From NCBI GenBank assembly GCA_016931295.1, contig JAFGEZ010000035.1:26998-90997 (forward strand): a stretch of DNA of 64,000 nt, given 5' to 3'. Shown in pieces: positions 27,001 through 39,000 of this stretch (positions are counted from its first letter, which is position 1; each line of letters starts with the position of its first letter). The position numbers are program-made. Source of the stretch: Candidatus Krumholzibacteriota bacterium (lineage in GTDB: Bacteria > Krumholzibacteriota > Krumholzibacteriia > Krumholzibacteriales > Krumholzibacteriaceae).

Positions 27001-30000
27001 TCCTCGTCACTGAAGTTGTAGTCGCTCGTCACCTCGAAGCGCAGCCTGAACACGCCGCCAAACGGCGAAAGCAGAAGGCCGAGATCGACGGAATCGTTCG
27101 CGAATACCGTCTCGCCCGTGTAGACGCGCAGCGTGTCCGTTCCGCCCGGCTGTTCGAGGAGGAGCCGCGCGAAATCGTATCCCTCCTCGAGATCCACCTC
27201 GTAGACGTAGGAGACGGACACCGCGGCGCCACCCCCCGCATGGGTGAAATCGCGGTAGACCGATTCGTGCCAGCCGTTCCCGTACCCCGCCCCCCCGGGC
27301 CAGTTCCGGATCCCGGCAGCCGTTTCGTCGTAGAAACAGGCGAGCGCGTGGTCGGCGAGATTCTCCGGGTCGCGCGCCCGGCCGAACCGCTCGCCGGGCA
27401 GGTCGAGCCGCAGGATCGCTCCCCCTTCCTCCACCGGCGCGAGATCGAGCGAGAGGGGGTCGGCCCCGACGTCGATCGTTTCGACCCATCCGAGTTGGTT
27501 CTTGCTCCACCCGCAGAGATGGGCGGGCGAATCGGGCGAGTTCCAGTTCCCCGACCCCATGAGACCCCAGTGGCCGATCCCGTATCCGCCCCCGTTGAAA
27601 TCGTAGAGATCGGGAAGCCCCAGGGTGTGCCCCAGTTCGTGGCAGAAGACGGCGATCTCGATCGTTTCGCCGTCGCACGAGCGGGAGGGCGCGACGATGT
27701 AGTCCTCGATGAGTATCGTCCCGCCCCCGAAGGCCGCATCGTCGGTTGGGTACGGCTCGCCCCCCGATGCGTTCCAGTTGCTGTAGCCCCACGAGTGCGA
27801 CCAGAGCGAGGTGCCGCCGCACTCGCCTCCCCGCGTCGAGTGGACGATGATGAGGACGTCGACGAAACCGTCGTCGTCCCCCGAGTTGGGTACTCCGTCG
27901 GGGCCGTCGTTGTCGAATCGCCCGAAGTCGATGCCGGGATCAGCCGCGGAGACCGTCTCGCGTATCAGCTCGCCGGTGCGCGAATAGACGGGGTCGAGGC
28001 CGTTGAACAATCCGACGTAGAAGGACTCCGCGTTATCGAGATCGTACCAGCCCGACACCTCTCCCGCGACGCCGAAGCGTTTGCGCGAGACCTCGTCGTA
28101 GTAGTCCGCGACGGTGCCGTACCTCATCGGTCCCTCGAAAAGGACGCGACGCAGGGCCGCGGTGGAGACGACCTCGTCGGTGTCGGCATAGCGCGCGGAG
28201 AGAACGGGGACGCGAAGCGATCCGGCGACCGGGATGACCCGATCGAGGGCCATGGCGGAGACATCCGCGTTGGAGGACCGTGCCCGGCGGGCGCGCGCGA
28301 CCCATCCGTGCGAGACGGTGAAGGCGGACCGGTTCTTCTCCCGCAGTCGACGGTAGGCGTCGGGAAGGGGGCCACCGCCCCTGGGCGGGACGATACCACC
28401 GCCGGCGGAGCCTGCGACGAAAAGCAGCACCGCCAGAACGGCCGGGGCGACGATACGCCGCCGGCCAGGTGATGCCGTCCTGTCACGCACGCCTTGTTCT
28501 CATTCCGTCGGGTTGATCACTGCACGATACGCGCGCGCCCGGGCCCGGGGGTACCCTTCCTCGCATTCGGCCACGCCGATGAACTGCGCGTTCTCGGACG
28601 GGCCGAGACCGATGATCGCATTCTCGAGCGGCTTGTCGGCGCGAAGGGTGAGGGTGTGGACCACCATCATCGGTCCGGGGCGGCAGGGGAACCGCTCGCT
28701 CAGGCCGCCATCGAACGTGCCGAGCGACATCACGCGATCCTGGCTGTACTTGTCGTTGACGATGGAGACGCCATCGGGAAGGATCAGCTTGAACTCGGTC
28801 GCGGCGATCTGCATCTCCTCGGGGAAGTGGACGATGACGTGAACGTCGAACTCCCGCACGTCCCGGTCGAGCTTGATGGTGCGCTTCGTCCCCTCGGCGT
28901 CGAAGTAGACGCCGAAGACCACGTTCTCGTTCACGTAGGAGATGAGACCGTCGTCTTTGGTGATGGCGGGCTCCTCCTTCTTCGCGGGCTCCTCCTTCGC
29001 GCACGAGAGGGCTCCGCAGAAACAGGCCGCCGCGAACAGGGACAGCACGGTGATCCGAAATACGTTCATCCTTCTCCCCCTTGTCGTAAAGATGCAACGT
29101 CGGGTTCCGGCGCACAAGCCTGGACGCAGGCATGATAGCCTTCAACCGTTTGTTTGACAATGAATATCGGTGCATTTCCGATTGACGCCCCCACGGCGAT
29201 TACATAGATTATGACGAGTATCGACGTGGGAGGAGGGCCGCCGGCCGCACTCCGCATCTCGTTATCCGGCAAAGAGATGAAATATCGACTTCATCGCACC
29301 CGATCCGGCCGGCGCGTTGCCCCCCGCACCGTCTCCCTTGTCTTCGTTCGAAGGAGCATGATCCGATGAAAAACAGGAACGAGAAATTCGAGCACCTCGC
29401 GAGGAAACGCGAACAGGCGCTGCTCGGCGGCGGGCGCAAGCGCATCGAGAAGATCCACGAGTCCGGGCGGCTCACCGCCCGCGAGCGCATCCACATCCTT
29501 TTCGACGAGGGAACCTTCCAGGAGCTCGGCGTCTTCGTGACGCACGACTCCGACTGGCCGGGGCTGAAGGACAACAAGCCGGTCGGAGACGGCGTCGTCT
29601 GCGGCCACGGTCTCGTCCGCGGCCGGACGGTCTACGCCTTCGCGCAGGATTTCACGGTGATCGGCGGTTCGCTGAGCATGTCGAACGCCGGCAAGATCAT
29701 CCGGCTGCAGGAGATGGCGCTCGAGAACGGCGCGCCCCTCATCGGGATCAACGATTCCGGGGGCGCCCGCATCCAGGAAGGCGTGAAGAGCCTCGCCGGC
29801 TACGCGAGCATCTTCCTGCGCAACACACTCGCATCGGGGGTCATCCCGCAGATCTCCGCGATCATGGGTCCCTGCGCGGGCGGCGCCGTCTACTCCCCAG
29901 CCCTCACCGACTTCATCTTCATGGTCGACCGGACGAGCCACATGTTCATCACGGGCCCGAACGTCATCAAGCAGGTGACGCACGAGGAGGTCAGCCAGGA

Positions 30001-36000: not shown

Positions 36001-39000
36001 GGTCCCGCTCGACCTGGTGATCGATCCTCAGGAGGGGGATCTCGATCTTCTCGTCGTCGAGGACGTAACGGTTCAGGCCGACGATCGTCTTGCGTTTCTC
36101 CTCGACCGCGATCTGGTACTCGTAGGCGGCCCTGCCGATCTCCCGCTGGAAGAAGCCCTGCTCGATCGCCCTGACCACCCCTCCCATCGCGTCGATCCGT
36201 TCGAAATACTCCTCCGCTTGCGCCTCCATCTCCGCCGTCCTGGATTCGATGAAATAGCTGCCCGCCAGGGGATCAGCCGTATTCGTCACCCCGGTCTCGT
36301 CGGCGATCAGCTGCTGCGTCCGCAGGGCGATCCGCACGGCCTTCTCGCTCGGGAGGGCCAAAGTCTCGTCCATCGAGTTCGTGTGCAGGCTCTGCGTGCC
36401 GCCGAGCACCGCCGAGAGGGCCTGGAAGGCGGTCCGCACGATGTTGTTCTCGGGCTGCTGGGCCGTCAGCGTGCACCCGGCCGTCTGCGTGTGGAACCTG
36501 AGCAGCCACGATCGCGGATCCTTCGCCCCGTATTTCCCGCGCATGCGCCTCGCCCAGATCCGCCGCGCGGCCCGGTACTTCGCGATCTCCTCGAAGAAAT
36601 CGAGGTGCGCGTTGAAGAAGAACGACAACCGGGGCGCGAAGCGATCGACGTCGAGCCCGGCGGCGATCCCCGCCTCGACGTAGGCGAATCCGTCGGCGAG
36701 AGTGAAGGCGAGTTCCTGCACCGCCGTCGACCCCGCTTCCCTGATGTGGTAGCCGCTGATCGAGATCGTGTTCCACCGCGGCACGTGATCGGCGCAGAAG
36801 GCGAGGATGTCGGTGATGATCCTGAGCGACGGCTCCGGCGGGAATATCCACGACTTCTGCGCGATGTACTCCTTCAGGATGTCGTTCTGGATCGTTCCTC
36901 CCATCCGTTCGAACGGAACGCCCTTCTTCCCGCCCGCGCAGAGATAAAAGGCGAGGAGGATCGACGCGGGGGCGTTGATCGTCATCGACGTCGTGATCGC
37001 CCCCTGGTCGATGCCGTCGAAGAGGATCTCCATGTCCCGGAGGGAATCGATCGCCACGCCGCAGCGTCCAACTTCGCCCTCGGAACGCGGATGGTCCGAG
37101 TCGTACCCCATGATCGTGGGCATGTCGAAGGCGACCGAGAGCCCGGTCTGCCCGTGTTCCAGCAGGTAGTGGTAGCGGCGGTTGGTGTCGCGCGGCGTGC
37201 CGAAACCGGCGAACTGCCTCATCGTCCAGGGCCGCCCCCGATACATCGTCGGGTAGACGCCCCGCGTGAACGGATAATCGCCGGGGAATCCCAGATCGCG
37301 CAGGTAATCGAGATCGCCGACGTCCTCGGGCGTATAGAGCGGTTTGACCGGGGCGCCCGAGACGGTGGTGAATTCCCGTTCCTCCTCGTGACAGGACGCG
37401 TAGCGTTCTTCGAACCGGTTTCGCGCCTCGCCGAATTCCCGGGGCTCGTCGTGTTTCGCCATCGACTGATCAACTCCCGCCCGGCGCATCGTCGATCCGC
37501 ACCAGGCCCTCGAGCTGCCGCACGAGCCGGTACGGGGACATGCGCCCGGAATAGACCTCGTCCATCTTCTCCTCGACCAGGCGCCGCACGGCGGCGGCGC
37601 GGTCGAGCCGCCGCGTGATGCGGTCCATGAGGGCGTTCCTGACACGCGCAAAGAGTATCTCGCGGCGCTTCGCCGCGAAACGGCCCGATTCGCCGAGCCA
37701 TCGACGGTGCTTTTCCAGCGTATCGGCGATCTCCACGATCCCCCGCTCCTCGCGCGCCGAGGCGAGCAGAACGGGCGGACGCCATCCCCCCCCGGGAACC
37801 GTCTTGAGGCGGAGCGCCGTCTCGATCTCCCTCGCGGCGATCTCGGCGTCGGAATGGTCCGCCTTGTTCATCACGAAGACGTCGCCGATCTCCATCAGGC
37901 CGGCCTTCATCGCCTGGATGCCGTCCCCCGATTCGGGGACGAGCACGACGACGACCGTGTGCGCCGTCTCGGCGATCTCCAGCTCGCTCTGTCCGACGCC
38001 GACCGTCTCGATCAGCACGAGGTCCTTGCCGAAGGCGTCGAGCACGTCGGCCGCCTCGTCCGTGCAGTTCGAGATCCCCCCGAGGGAACCCCGGCTCGCC
38101 AGCGATCGGACGTAGACGCCCGGATCGATGGCCAGGTCCTGCATCCGCACCCGATCGCCGAGGAGCGCGCCACCGCTGAACGGGCTCGACGGATCGACGG
38201 CGATGACGCCGATCTGCCGTTCGCGCGCCCGGAAGATCCTCGTCATGAGGTTGACGAGGGTGCTCTTCCCCGCCCCCGGTGGTCCGGTGAATCCAACGCG
38301 CCAGGCCCCGCTCGCCCGCGGATAGATACCGTCCATCACCGCTTCCGCTCCCGCCCCGCCGTTCTCGATGATCGAGATCGCGCGAGCGAGGGCGGCGGTC
38401 TTTCCGGCCGCGAACCGTTCGAGCAGCTCCTCCACGGCGGCGTTCCGTTCCATCCTAGTACTCGATCCCCTCGCGGGCCTGCACGCCCGCAGCGTAGTGG
38501 TGCTTGATCTCGCGCATCTCCGTCACGGTGTCGGCGATCCCGATCAGTTCCTCCGGGGCGTACCGCCCGGTGAGCACGAGCTCCATCGAGGGCGGCCGAT
38601 CCGCGGCCAGCGCGACGACCTTCTCCACGGGCACGAGGCCGAAAGAGCAGGCGACGTTGATCTCGTCGAGGACGAGCATGTCGATCGTTCCCTCGCGTAC
38701 GAGCGCTTCGGCCCGCTCCCAGCCGCGCGCGGCGAGCTCGCGGTCGATCTCGGCCGGATCGTCCGGGTCGACGAACTCGTCCCGCCCGTACTGCTCGATC
38801 TCGAGGCCCGGCACGTGCTTTGCCGACGCGAGTTCGCCGTAGAGCCGCCCCTTCATGAACTGGACGACGACGATCCGCCAGTTGTGCCCGGCGGCGCGCA
38901 TCGCGAGCCCGATCGCCGCGGTCGTCTTCCCCTTCCCGTCACCCGTGTACAACTGCACCGTACCCCGCCGATCCTTCATCGTTCCCCCCCGTCGCCATCT

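What the first reader, a model, noticed from the sequence alone, without database searches (positions are those of the whole stretch)
29366..38979. Two paralogous B12 acyl-CoA mutase large subunits with opposite substrate-specificity residues; only one has a B12-binding partner
The plus-strand operon is pccB - mutase(555 aa) - epimerase. Its mutase has TMRQYAGF and [10 protein letters not shown], the Tyr and Arg that bind the methylmalonyl-CoA carboxylate, so it reads as MCM. It has no B12-binding domain, and no small subunit follows it. The convergent minus-strand operon is cobA-like adenosyltransferase - meaB - mutase(555 aa) - B12 small subunit(135 aa) - thiolase - hbd. Its mutase has TMRQFAGF and [10 protein letters not shown], the Phe and Gln substitution characteristic of isobutyryl-CoA mutase. 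Its coupling to hbd and thiolase fits interconversion of branched and straight C4 acyl-CoAs feeding beta-oxidation. The two catalytic subunits are ~65% identical. The MCM-like one may have to share the single IcmB-like B12 subunit and the MeaB chaperone. A perfect 9-bp-stem bidirectional terminator separates the operons.
Basis: partly seen in the sequence, partly recalled or inferred. Interest (0 to 1): 0.6.

Follow-up and report, generated by a model that had tools for sequence, protein, structure and literature searches.

The report
Neighbouring MCM-type and ICM-type B12 mutases
Two back-to-back operons in a Krumholzibacteriota genome encode two ordinary vitamin-B12 acyl-CoA mutases, one methylmalonyl-type and one isobutyryl-type; the idea that they share a single B12-binding subunit is plausible but could not be tested here.

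Summary
All nine genes are at the stated coordinates and both motif pairs are present. The only B12-binding small subunit in the 64-kb window lies in the minus-strand operon. Two details are off: the large subunits are 58.5% identical, not ~65%, and the hairpin stem is 11 perfect pairs (13 with G-U and A-U), not 9.

The enzyme assignments are supported. Mutase 1 (Y/A/R signature) sits in a rough tree among methylmalonyl-CoA mutase (MCM)-signature proteins. Mutase 2 (F/A/Q) sits among isobutyryl-CoA mutase (ICM)-signature proteins and lacks the Ile/Asp pair of hydroxyisobutyryl-CoA mutase.

The nine-gene arrangement recurs in at least nine other Krumholzibacteriota-like contigs, including a complete 4.1-Mb genome.

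The sharing inference is not compelled. Of 72 split Y/R large-subunit loci from other phyla, 23 have no small subunit within at least 5 kb on either side and no second mutase. Stand-alone small-subunit/meaB pairs are common in metagenomes. The window's small subunit clusters with ICM-linked ones.

No whole genome could be read, so a second small subunit elsewhere remains open. I put sharing at about 0.3. Verdict: new members of known enzyme kinds in a candidate phylum; modest interest.

The parts
29182..29210 (+). sigma-70-like promoter match (TTGACG-17-TAGATT) upstream of the carboxyltransferase gene
   Evidence: Consensus scan, (9 of 12 matches). Weak evidence, and the promoter type used by this phylum is unknown.
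29366..30919 (+). Acyl-CoA carboxyltransferase, 517 aa (PccB / MmdA / transcarboxylase 12S family)
   Evidence: TIGR01117 mmdA 790 bits, below the 999-bit cut-off. PCC beta 3n6r 680 bits, MmdA-like 1x0u 620 bits, 12S 1on3 587 bits.
30937..32604 (+). Mutase 1: MCM-type catalytic (large) subunit, 555 aa, no B12 domain. Signature Tyr86 / Ala / Arg204 / Tyr-His.
   Evidence: TIGR00641 773 bits against a 304-bit cut-off. Motifs. Signature YARYH matches MutB and human MCM. Y/A/R clade.
32622..33029 (+). Methylmalonyl-CoA epimerase, 135 aa
   Evidence: TIGR03081 157 bits against a 115-bit cut-off.
33075..33103 (.). GC-rich hairpin between the convergent operons (11 perfect pairs, 13 with G-U and A-U). 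Likely a two-way intrinsic terminator.
   Evidence: Sequence. Folds on both strands. Relatives L002, L007 and L043 have hairpins of different sequence at the same place. Not listed by the consensus scan.
33157..34014 (-). 3-hydroxybutyryl-CoA dehydrogenase (285 aa from MAIRK; the open frame extends to 34065)
   Evidence: NF004474 456 bits against a 408-bit cut-off. Called as 285 aa in L001 and L002.
34116..35297 (-). Acetyl-CoA C-acetyltransferase (thiolase), 393 aa
   Evidence: TIGR01930 452 bits against a 241-bit cut-off.
35363..35770 (-). B12-binding small subunit, 135 aa, with the DxHxxG motif ([10 protein letters not shown]). The only one in the window.
   Evidence: TIGR00640 177 bits against a 57-bit cut-off; best solved relatives are 2yxb and HcmB (4r3u_C). 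Single copy. Groups with F/Q-linked small subunits.
35795..37462 (-). Mutase 2: ICM-type catalytic (large) subunit, 555 aa. Signature Phe84 / Ala111 / Gln202 / Tyr-His.
   Evidence: TIGR00641 774 bits. Motifs. Alignment to HcmA and MCM. Signature FAQYH. F/A/Q clade.
37470..38453 (-). MeaB-type G-protein chaperone, 327 aa (P-loop GPPGAGKST)
   Evidence: TIGR00750 323 bits against a 241-bit cut-off.
38455..38979 (-). CobA/CobO/BtuR-type ATP:cob(I)alamin adenosyltransferase, 174 aa
   Evidence: NF004637 193 bits against a 185-bit cut-off.
39015..39043 (-). sigma-70-like promoter match (TTTACA-17-AATAAT) upstream of the adenosyltransferase gene
   Evidence: Consensus scan, (10 of 12 matches). Weak evidence.

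Best explanation
The region holds two convergent operons of short-chain acyl-CoA metabolism in a Candidatus Krumholzibacteriota genome.

Plus-strand operon (carboxyltransferase, mutase 1, epimerase). This is a methylmalonyl-pathway module. It interconverts succinyl-CoA, (R)- and (S)-methylmalonyl-CoA and propionyl-CoA. Mutase 1 is the catalytic subunit of a split methylmalonyl-CoA mutase.

Minus-strand operon (adenosyltransferase, MeaB, mutase 2, B12 small subunit, thiolase, Hbd). This is a self-sufficient split isobutyryl-CoA mutase system. The adenosyltransferase makes adenosylcobalamin. MeaB gates its loading onto the small subunit. The mutase 2/small-subunit enzyme interconverts isobutyryl-CoA and butyryl-CoA. 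Thiolase and Hbd link the straight-chain C4 pool to acetyl-CoA. Crotonase and butyryl-CoA dehydrogenase, which are also needed, must be encoded elsewhere.

Shown: gene content, family membership, active-site signatures, and conservation of the arrangement across the phylum.

Inferred: substrates, direction of flux, and operon boundaries.

Mutase 1 needs a small subunit supplied in trans. I judge a separate unlinked small subunit elsewhere in the genome somewhat more likely (about 0.6), as in the relatives of mutase 1 in other phyla. Use of the neighbouring IcmB-like subunit is less likely (about 0.3).
For: - Family models pass their curated cut-offs for both mutases, the epimerase, Hbd, thiolase, the small subunit, MeaB and the adenosyltransferase.
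- Specificity positions, read on alignments to solved HcmA, P. shermanii MutB and human MCM: mutase 1 = Y/A/R, mutase 2 = F/A/Q, HcmA = I/D/Q.
- In a neighbour-joining tree of 106 family members, mutase 2 lies with six F/A/Q representatives plus one with an incomplete -/I/Q signature, and mutase 1 lies with Y/A/R proteins.
- Orthologues keep these signatures.
- The same nine-gene arrangement occurs in L002 (complete genome CP070727.1), L003, L004, L007, L008, L010, L085 and L086, and in part in L005 and L043.
- At least 19 contig lengths are common to the hit lists of the two mutases.
- ICM-type operons of the form meaB-icmA-small subunit, sometimes preceded by an adenosyltransferase, occur in other lineages (L091, L095, L119, L128, L139, L140).
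- The window's small subunit groups with F/Q-linked small subunits.
- The two-site Tyr/Arg versus Phe/Gln rule is the published specificity criterion (PMC7238569, citing Jost et al. 2015).
- ICM-type mutases (IcmF) are reported as widely misannotated as MCM (PMC7764203, citing Cracan et al. 2010). NCBI names both proteins here only 'methylmalonyl-CoA mutase family protein'.
Against: - No biochemical data exist for any member of these two clades.
- The trees are quick neighbour-joining trees without support values.
- Crotonase and acyl-CoA dehydrogenase are absent from the window, so the link between ICM and thiolase/Hbd is indirect.
- The carboxyltransferase has no biotin partner nearby, so the direction of the methylmalonyl module (propionate formation or propionyl-CoA assimilation) is open.
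- The partner of mutase 1 is unknown.
Confidence: 0.75

Rival explanations
1. Sharing. The single IcmB-like small subunit, the single MeaB and the single adenosyltransferase of the minus-strand operon also serve mutase 1. One B12-handling module would then be combined with two different catalytic barrels.
For: There is only one small subunit in 64 kb and within +/-10 kb in every relative examined. The two operons stay adjacent across the phylum, down to 59% identity of the mutase 1 orthologue in L043. Small subunits are very conserved across partner types: 58-71% identity to Y/R-linked ones. MeaB/MMAA contacts mainly the B12 domain, so the loading unit is in principle portable (PMC10356863). 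Among the top 120 small-subunit homologues, each long contig appears only once.
Against: Adjacency is part of a much wider conserved synteny running from the M6 protease to GatB, so it is not specific evidence. Split Y/R large subunits without a linked small subunit are common in phyla that have no ICM neighbour (23 of 44 assessable loci), so absence next door predicts little. Stand-alone small-subunit/meaB pairs are frequent in metagenomes. The small subunit clusters with ICM-linked ones. The test is weak, because all 120 listed hits are orthologues of at least 77% identity. I found no published precedent in the searches run.
Confidence: 0.3
2. Mutase 2 is not an isobutyryl-CoA mutase. It would be a hydroxyacyl-CoA mutase of the HCM/RCM kind, interconverting 3-hydroxybutyryl-CoA and 2-hydroxyisobutyryl-CoA, which would feed Hbd and thiolase directly.
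For: Hbd and thiolase follow the mutase genes directly, and no crotonase or acyl-CoA dehydrogenase is in the window. The best solved relative by sequence is HcmA, 4r3u, at 587 bits.
Against: Mutase 2 has Phe and Ala where HcmA has Ile and Asp (TMRQIAGF and GISTDFD in HcmA; TMRQFAGF and GLSVAFD here). Mutase 1 matches HcmA almost as well (570 bits), so that score reflects the split architecture and not specificity. In the tree, HcmA and the I/D/Q representatives lie elsewhere.
Confidence: 0.06
3. Mutase 1 is a decaying or non-catalytic paralogue that is no longer active as a mutase, so no partner is needed.
For: It has no linked small subunit. In one assembly (L003) the neighbouring carboxyltransferase is fragmentary.
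Against: Mutase 1 is full length and keeps all catalytic signature residues. GC3 is 0.87, like neighbouring genes. Orthologues are 72-78% identical with conserved motifs in many genomes. L003 carries many split genes, which is typical of assembly errors.
Confidence: 0.03

Closest known systems
Streptomyces cinnamonensis isobutyryl-CoA mutase IcmA/IcmB (split ICM)
   Same: A large subunit of about 560 aa without a B12 domain, plus a small B12-binding subunit of about 135 aa. It carries the Phe/Gln pair at the two specificity positions. These facts are from established knowledge (the references to Ratnatilleke 1999 and Jost 2015 are listed in PMC7238569).
   Different: From my own knowledge, icmA and icmB are unlinked in Streptomyces. 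Here they are adjacent and embedded with meaB, a CobA-type adenosyltransferase, thiolase and hbd.
Metallosphaera sedula split MCM (Msed_0638 large subunit next to epimerase Msed_0639; Msed_2055 small subunit unlinked)
   Same: An MCM catalytic subunit encoded next to the epimerase, with no small subunit beside it (PMC7078158, citing Han et al. 2012).
   Different: M. sedula is an archaeon using the enzyme in an autotrophic cycle, and no ICM paralogue is reported next to it there. Here a complete ICM-type operon with a small subunit lies about 3 kb away.
Firmicutes/Spirochaetes-type split MCM operon (mutase, small subunit, meaB, epimerase, carboxyltransferase)
   Same: The same enzyme set for the methylmalonyl pathway, with a Y/A/R large subunit 57-61% identical to mutase 1 (L012, L015, L023, L024, L027, L030, L032, L035, L036, L053, L070).
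   Different: Those operons carry their own small subunit and meaB between the mutase and the epimerase. The plus-strand operon here has neither.
Aquincola tertiaricarbonis 2-hydroxyisobutyryl-CoA mutase HcmA/HcmB (PDB 4R3U)
   Same: The best solved sequence relative of both large subunits (587 and 570 bits) and a close relative of the small subunit (136 bits). It has the same split architecture.
   Different: HcmA has Ile and Asp at the substrate positions. Neither window protein has them.
Cupriavidus metallidurans IcmF (fused ICM with G-protein, PDB 4XC6)
   Same: The same reaction type is expected, and NCBIfam's IcmF model matches the small subunit, MeaB and the barrel separately. Some F/A/Q representatives in the same clade are 680-910 aa long, so they may be fused forms.
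   Different: Here the three parts are separate genes. Similarity to IcmF is much lower (298 bits over residues 185-550).

Membership tests
Methylmalonyl-CoA mutase, split type (mutase 1) | Acyl-CoA mutase substrate-binding barrel domain | tested here: met
   TIGR00641 773 bits against a 304-bit cut-off. Aligns end to end with MutB and human MCM.
Methylmalonyl-CoA mutase, split type (mutase 1) | Tyr and Arg at the positions of P. shermanii Tyr89 and Arg207, which bind the substrate carboxylate | tested here: met
   TMRQYAGF and [10 protein letters not shown]. Alignment signature YAR is identical to MutB and human MCM. Conserved in orthologues.
Methylmalonyl-CoA mutase, split type (mutase 1) | A cognate B12-binding subunit with the DxHxxG motif | tested here: inconclusive
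   None lies in its operon. The only one in the window belongs to the convergent operon. The rest of the genome could not be read.
Methylmalonyl-CoA mutase, split type (mutase 1) | Pathway context with methylmalonyl-CoA epimerase and a propionyl/methylmalonyl-CoA carboxyltransferase | tested here: met
   Both flank the gene with 17-nt spacers.
Methylmalonyl-CoA mutase, split type (mutase 1) | Catalysis of methylmalonyl-CoA to succinyl-CoA | not testable with these tools
   Requires an enzyme assay.
Isobutyryl-CoA mutase, split IcmA/IcmB type (mutase 2 plus small subunit) | Phe and Gln replacing the MCM Tyr and Arg | tested here: met
   TMRQFAGF and [10 protein letters not shown]. Signature FAQ. 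Conserved in orthologues.
Isobutyryl-CoA mutase, split IcmA/IcmB type (mutase 2 plus small subunit) | A separate small B12-binding subunit with the DxHxxG motif | tested here: met
   A 135-aa protein 24 nt downstream, containing [14 protein letters not shown]00640 177 bits against a 57-bit cut-off.
Isobutyryl-CoA mutase, split IcmA/IcmB type (mutase 2 plus small subunit) | Phylogenetic placement with other Phe/Gln mutases rather than inside MCM | tested here: met
   In the neighbour-joining tree, mutase 2 groups with P0362, P0394, P0424, P0423, P0421 and P0466 (all F/A/Q) and P0390 (incomplete signature -/I/Q). The tree is rough and has no support values.
Isobutyryl-CoA mutase, split IcmA/IcmB type (mutase 2 plus small subunit) | Catalysis of isobutyryl-CoA to butyryl-CoA | not testable with these tools
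   Requires an enzyme assay.
2-hydroxyisobutyryl-CoA mutase (HCM/RCM) | Ile90 and Asp117 (HcmA numbering) in the substrate pocket | tested here: not met
   Mutase 2 has Phe and Ala, and mutase 1 has Tyr and Ala. HcmA has Ile and Asp in the same alignment.
IcmF (fused ICM) | One polypeptide carrying the B12 domain, the G-domain and the barrel | tested here: not met
   Three separate genes. The IcmF model scores 364, 85 and 122 bits against a 1500-bit cut-off.
Intrinsic (rho-independent) terminator, two-way | A GC-rich hairpin followed by a U-run on each strand | tested here: inconclusive
   The hairpin is strong on both strands. The U-run is good on the minus strand and weak on the plus strand. 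The consensus scan did not call it.

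The most novel reading that the evidence does not exclude
In Krumholzibacteriota one B12-handling module would service two different catalytic barrels, an MCM-type and an ICM-type. 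The module consists of an IcmB-like small subunit, MeaB and a CobA-type adenosyltransferase. This would be the first case of a shared cofactor subunit among acyl-CoA mutases. It would couple the propionate/succinate and butyrate/isobutyrate branches through competition for one B12 subunit.
Probability: 0.3. Interest if true: 0.55.

Novelty: new member of a known kind. Interest (0 to 1): 0.3.

Why it matters
Both enzymes belong to well-described classes, so the locus mainly refines annotation. NCBI calls both proteins 'methylmalonyl-CoA mutase family protein'. One of them is very probably an isobutyryl-CoA mutase, which gives this uncultured phylum a predicted route between branched and straight C4 acyl-CoAs (valine or isobutyrate metabolism).

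The only part that would interest a specialist is the possible sharing of a single small subunit, MeaB and adenosyltransferase by two catalytic subunits. That would show that split acyl-CoA mutases are mix-and-match assemblies. A proteome-wide domain count in the available complete genome would test it cheaply.

Tried and rejected
1. Counting small subunits in a whole genome. No tool reads a full genome. The third protein search, with the small subunit, returned only orthologues of at least 77% identity, so a diverged paralogue could not appear. Each long contig occurred once, which is a weak negative.
2. Looking up the window's own mutase 2 and small subunit by exact sequence. Neither is on record. 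Only a 10-kb ENA contig carries mutase 1.
3. Metagenome scan with the small subunit. It gave no Krumholzibacteriota paralogue, but it did reveal the range of contexts: F/Q-linked, Y/R-linked, and stand-alone with meaB.
4. Contexts of distant F/A/Q representatives. The contigs were too short to say much. P0362 lies between a 287-aa thiolase-like ORF (50% to the window thiolase, cut at the contig end) and a 129-aa gene that gave no match to the window small subunit.
5. Hydroxyisobutyryl-CoA mutase reading of mutase 2. Rejected on the Ile/Asp test.
6. Cobalamin riboswitch or other RNA element at the operons. None found; Rfam reports only two tRNAs in the window.
7. Key primary papers (Jost 2015, Cracan 2010, Yaneva 2012) are not held. 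Their content is cited second-hand or from my own knowledge and is marked as such.
8. Literature searches for a shared small subunit or for Krumholzibacteriota mutases found nothing relevant.

Full report
WHAT IS THERE

The region 29366-38979 contains nine tightly spaced genes in two convergent operons.

Plus strand:
- an acyl-CoA carboxyltransferase (29366-30919, 517 aa)
- mutase 1 (30937-32604, 555 aa)
- a methylmalonyl-CoA epimerase (32622-33029)

These are separated by 17-nt spacers.

Minus strand:
- a CobA/CobO-type adenosyltransferase (38455-38979)
- MeaB (37470-38453)
- mutase 2 (35795-37462, 555 aa)
- a 135-aa B12-binding subunit (35363-35770)
- a thiolase (34116-35297)
- 3-hydroxybutyryl-CoA dehydrogenase (33157-34014)

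Gaps on this strand run from 1 to about 100 nt.

All of these pass the curated NCBIfam cut-offs except the carboxyltransferase. That protein is a PccB/MmdA/12S family member scoring below the mmdA subfamily cut-off.

The small subunit carries the DxHxxG motif ([10 protein letters not shown]). A tblastn of it against the whole window finds no second copy.

Two details need correcting. The large subunits are 58.5% identical, not ~65%. The spacer hairpin (33075-33103) has 11 perfect pairs, extended to 13-14 by RNAfold, and is much more stable than shuffled sequence on both strands. Its U-run is convincing only on the minus strand, and the consensus scan did not list it.

SOURCE AND CONSERVATION

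The mutase 2 and small-subunit sequences are identical to proteins of a Candidatus Krumholzibacteriota MAG, on a 101,590-bp NCBI contig.

The same nine-gene arrangement, including the convergent orientation, occurs in:
- a complete 4.13-Mb genome (CP070727.1, L002)
- a 699-kb contig (L003)
- 'Latescibacteria 4484_7' contigs (L085 and L086)
- several GTDB genomes (L004, L007, L008, L010; in part L005 and L043)

At least 19 contig lengths are common to the hit lists of the two mutases.

The surrounding synteny is also conserved: FeoB, an iron repressor, an M6 protease, a histidine kinase, an LTD protein, a sigma factor and GatB. The adjacency of the two operons is therefore not specific evidence for a functional link.

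WHAT THE TWO MUTASES ARE

On alignments to solved structures, and in a MAFFT alignment with 150 family representatives, I read the positions equivalent to P. shermanii Tyr89, HcmA Asp117, Arg207 and Tyr243-His244.

| Protein | Signature |
|---|---|
| Mutase 1 | Y-A-R-Y-H |
| MutB and human MCM | Y-A-R-Y-H |
| Mutase 2 | F-A-Q-Y-H |
| HcmA | I-D-Q-Y-H |

The Tyr/Arg versus Phe/Gln rule is the published two-site criterion separating MCM from ICM (cited in PMC7238569 from Jost et al. 2015).

Among the 150 representatives the counts are Y/A/R 72, F/A/Q about 21 and I/D/Q 3. Many other signatures also occur.

In a neighbour-joining tree of the 106 near-full-length sequences, mutase 2 lies in a clade made of F/A/Q proteins plus one incomplete -/I/Q representative (P0390). 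Mutase 1 lies in a Y/A/R clade. The two clades are neighbours, next to the classical fused MCMs. Orthologues in relatives keep the respective residues.

Both proteins score best against HcmA among solved structures (587 and 570 bits). That reflects the shared split architecture and not specificity.

I therefore accept MCM-type for mutase 1 and ICM-type for mutase 2, and I reject the hydroxyisobutyryl-CoA mutase reading.

NCBI names both proteins only 'methylmalonyl-CoA mutase family protein'. This fits the reported widespread misannotation of IcmF-type ICM (PMC7764203, citing Cracan et al. 2010).

HOW IT MOST LIKELY WORKS

The plus-strand operon is a methylmalonyl-pathway module covering succinyl-CoA, (R)- and (S)-methylmalonyl-CoA and propionyl-CoA. 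Its direction is open. No biotin carboxylase or carrier protein is in the window, and the carboxyltransferase matches PCC beta, MmdA-like and 12S proteins about equally.

The minus-strand operon is a complete split-ICM system:
- The adenosyltransferase makes adenosylcobalamin.
- MeaB gates loading onto the small subunit.
- The mutase interconverts isobutyryl-CoA and butyryl-CoA.
- Thiolase and Hbd connect the C4 pool to acetyl-CoA.

Crotonase and butyryl-CoA dehydrogenase are not in the window, so that last link is inferred.

Operons of the form meaB-icmA-small subunit or icmA-small subunit-meaB, sometimes preceded by an adenosyltransferase, occur in other lineages. One of them, L089, also has thiolase and hbd downstream. 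The minus-strand operon is thus a typical, self-sufficient ICM operon.

THE SHARING QUESTION

I tested how unusual that lack is.

Of 72 GTDB loci from other phyla with a split Y/R large subunit:
- 21 have an adjacent small subunit, mostly the Firmicutes/Spirochaetes order mutase, small subunit, meaB, epimerase, carboxyltransferase
- 23 have none although at least 5 kb is available on both sides
- 28 have none, but with shorter flanks
- none has a second mutase nearby

The closest non-Krumholzibacteriota relatives of mutase 1 (L011, L013, L014 and others) belong to the unlinked kind.

The metagenome scan with the small subunit found at least 15 stand-alone small-subunit/meaB pairs with no mutase in the fetched flank. 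M. sedula provides a characterised precedent for an MCM large subunit next to the epimerase with the small subunit unlinked (PMC7078158).

In a tree of 100-odd small subunits, the window's protein and its orthologues group with F/Q-linked small subunits. They are sister to a clade of Y/R-linked ones. The small subunit therefore looks like the cognate partner of mutase 2.

Points in favour of sharing:
- No second copy was seen in 64 kb here or within +/-10 kb in any relative.
- Small subunits are highly conserved across partner types (58-71% identity).
- MeaB/MMAA contacts mainly the B12 domain (PMC10356863), so the loading unit could be portable.

I could not count small subunits in a complete genome, so the question stays open. 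My estimates are sharing about 0.3, a separate unlinked small subunit about 0.6, and other outcomes about 0.1.

COMPARISON WITH KNOWN SYSTEMS AND NOVELTY

Mutase 2 with the small subunit works like S. cinnamonensis IcmA/IcmB and meets the sequence-level membership criteria tested. Mutase 1 works like the split MCMs of archaea and many bacteria.

Neither is a member of HCM (the Ile/Asp test is not met) or of IcmF (the parts are not fused).

These are new members of known kinds in a candidate phylum. A specialist would not be surprised by two acyl-CoA mutase paralogues with different specificity residues, or by an MCM large-subunit gene without a neighbouring small subunit. Only demonstrated sharing of one B12 subunit and chaperone would be new.

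LIMITS

There is no biochemistry for these clades. The trees are neighbour-joining without support values. Several primary papers were not held. Whole-genome content could not be read.

Noticed in passing
window 39079-40788 (-) and 40896-41531 (-): A sensor histidine kinase lies directly upstream of the adenosyltransferase gene. Its N-terminus is Cys-rich (CWEFLGCDKKECAAYGQTHSPCWEVTGHRCHG...CCFKCPFF). A lamin-tail-domain protein follows it. Both are conserved at this position in every relative examined. The kinase core scores best against AtoS. It might regulate the mutase operon.
   Followed up: partly
L002 14839-16574 (CP070727.1): In the complete genome the mutase 2 orthologue is not in the list of called genes. 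Its longest open frame is only 515 aa. This is either a frameshift from assembly error or a pseudogene.
   Followed up: no
representatives P0361-P0510: Among 150 acyl-CoA mutase large-subunit representatives, many carry neither the MCM, ICM nor HCM signature at the three substrate positions (for example VVG, VVR, IVL, IVC, LVG, QTI). They form their own clades in the tree. These may be mutases with undescribed substrates.
   Followed up: no
L092, L094, L095, L108, L109, L111, L128, L129, L138, L139, L141: In metagenome contigs the small subunit, where visible next to an F/Q large subunit, is often followed directly by a gene about 35% identical to the window carboxyltransferase. This recurrent ICM-associated neighbour is absent from the Krumholzibacteriota operon.
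   Followed up: no
L112, L114, L115, L116, L137, L143, L150, L159, L162: Stand-alone small-subunit/meaB pairs with no mutase large subunit in the fetched flanks. This included about 6 kb on each side for L116, which lies on a 518-kb contig.
   Followed up: partly
L001 4477-5720 and L003 (several genes): The carboxyltransferase gene is split in two in the ENA contig that otherwise matches the window (L001). L003 shows many split genes: amidase, GatB, hbd and the carboxyltransferase. These look like frameshift errors in those assemblies.
   Followed up: no
window 25680-28490 (-) and 28500-29117 (-): An M6-family metalloprotease of 936 aa with a T9SS sorting tail, and a conserved 205-aa protein with no family match, lie just upstream of the plus-strand operon. 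Both are syntenic in relatives.
   Followed up: no
window 7330-7402 (-) and 18368-18449 (-): Two tRNA genes are the only Rfam matches in the window. No cobalamin riboswitch is present.
   Followed up: yes
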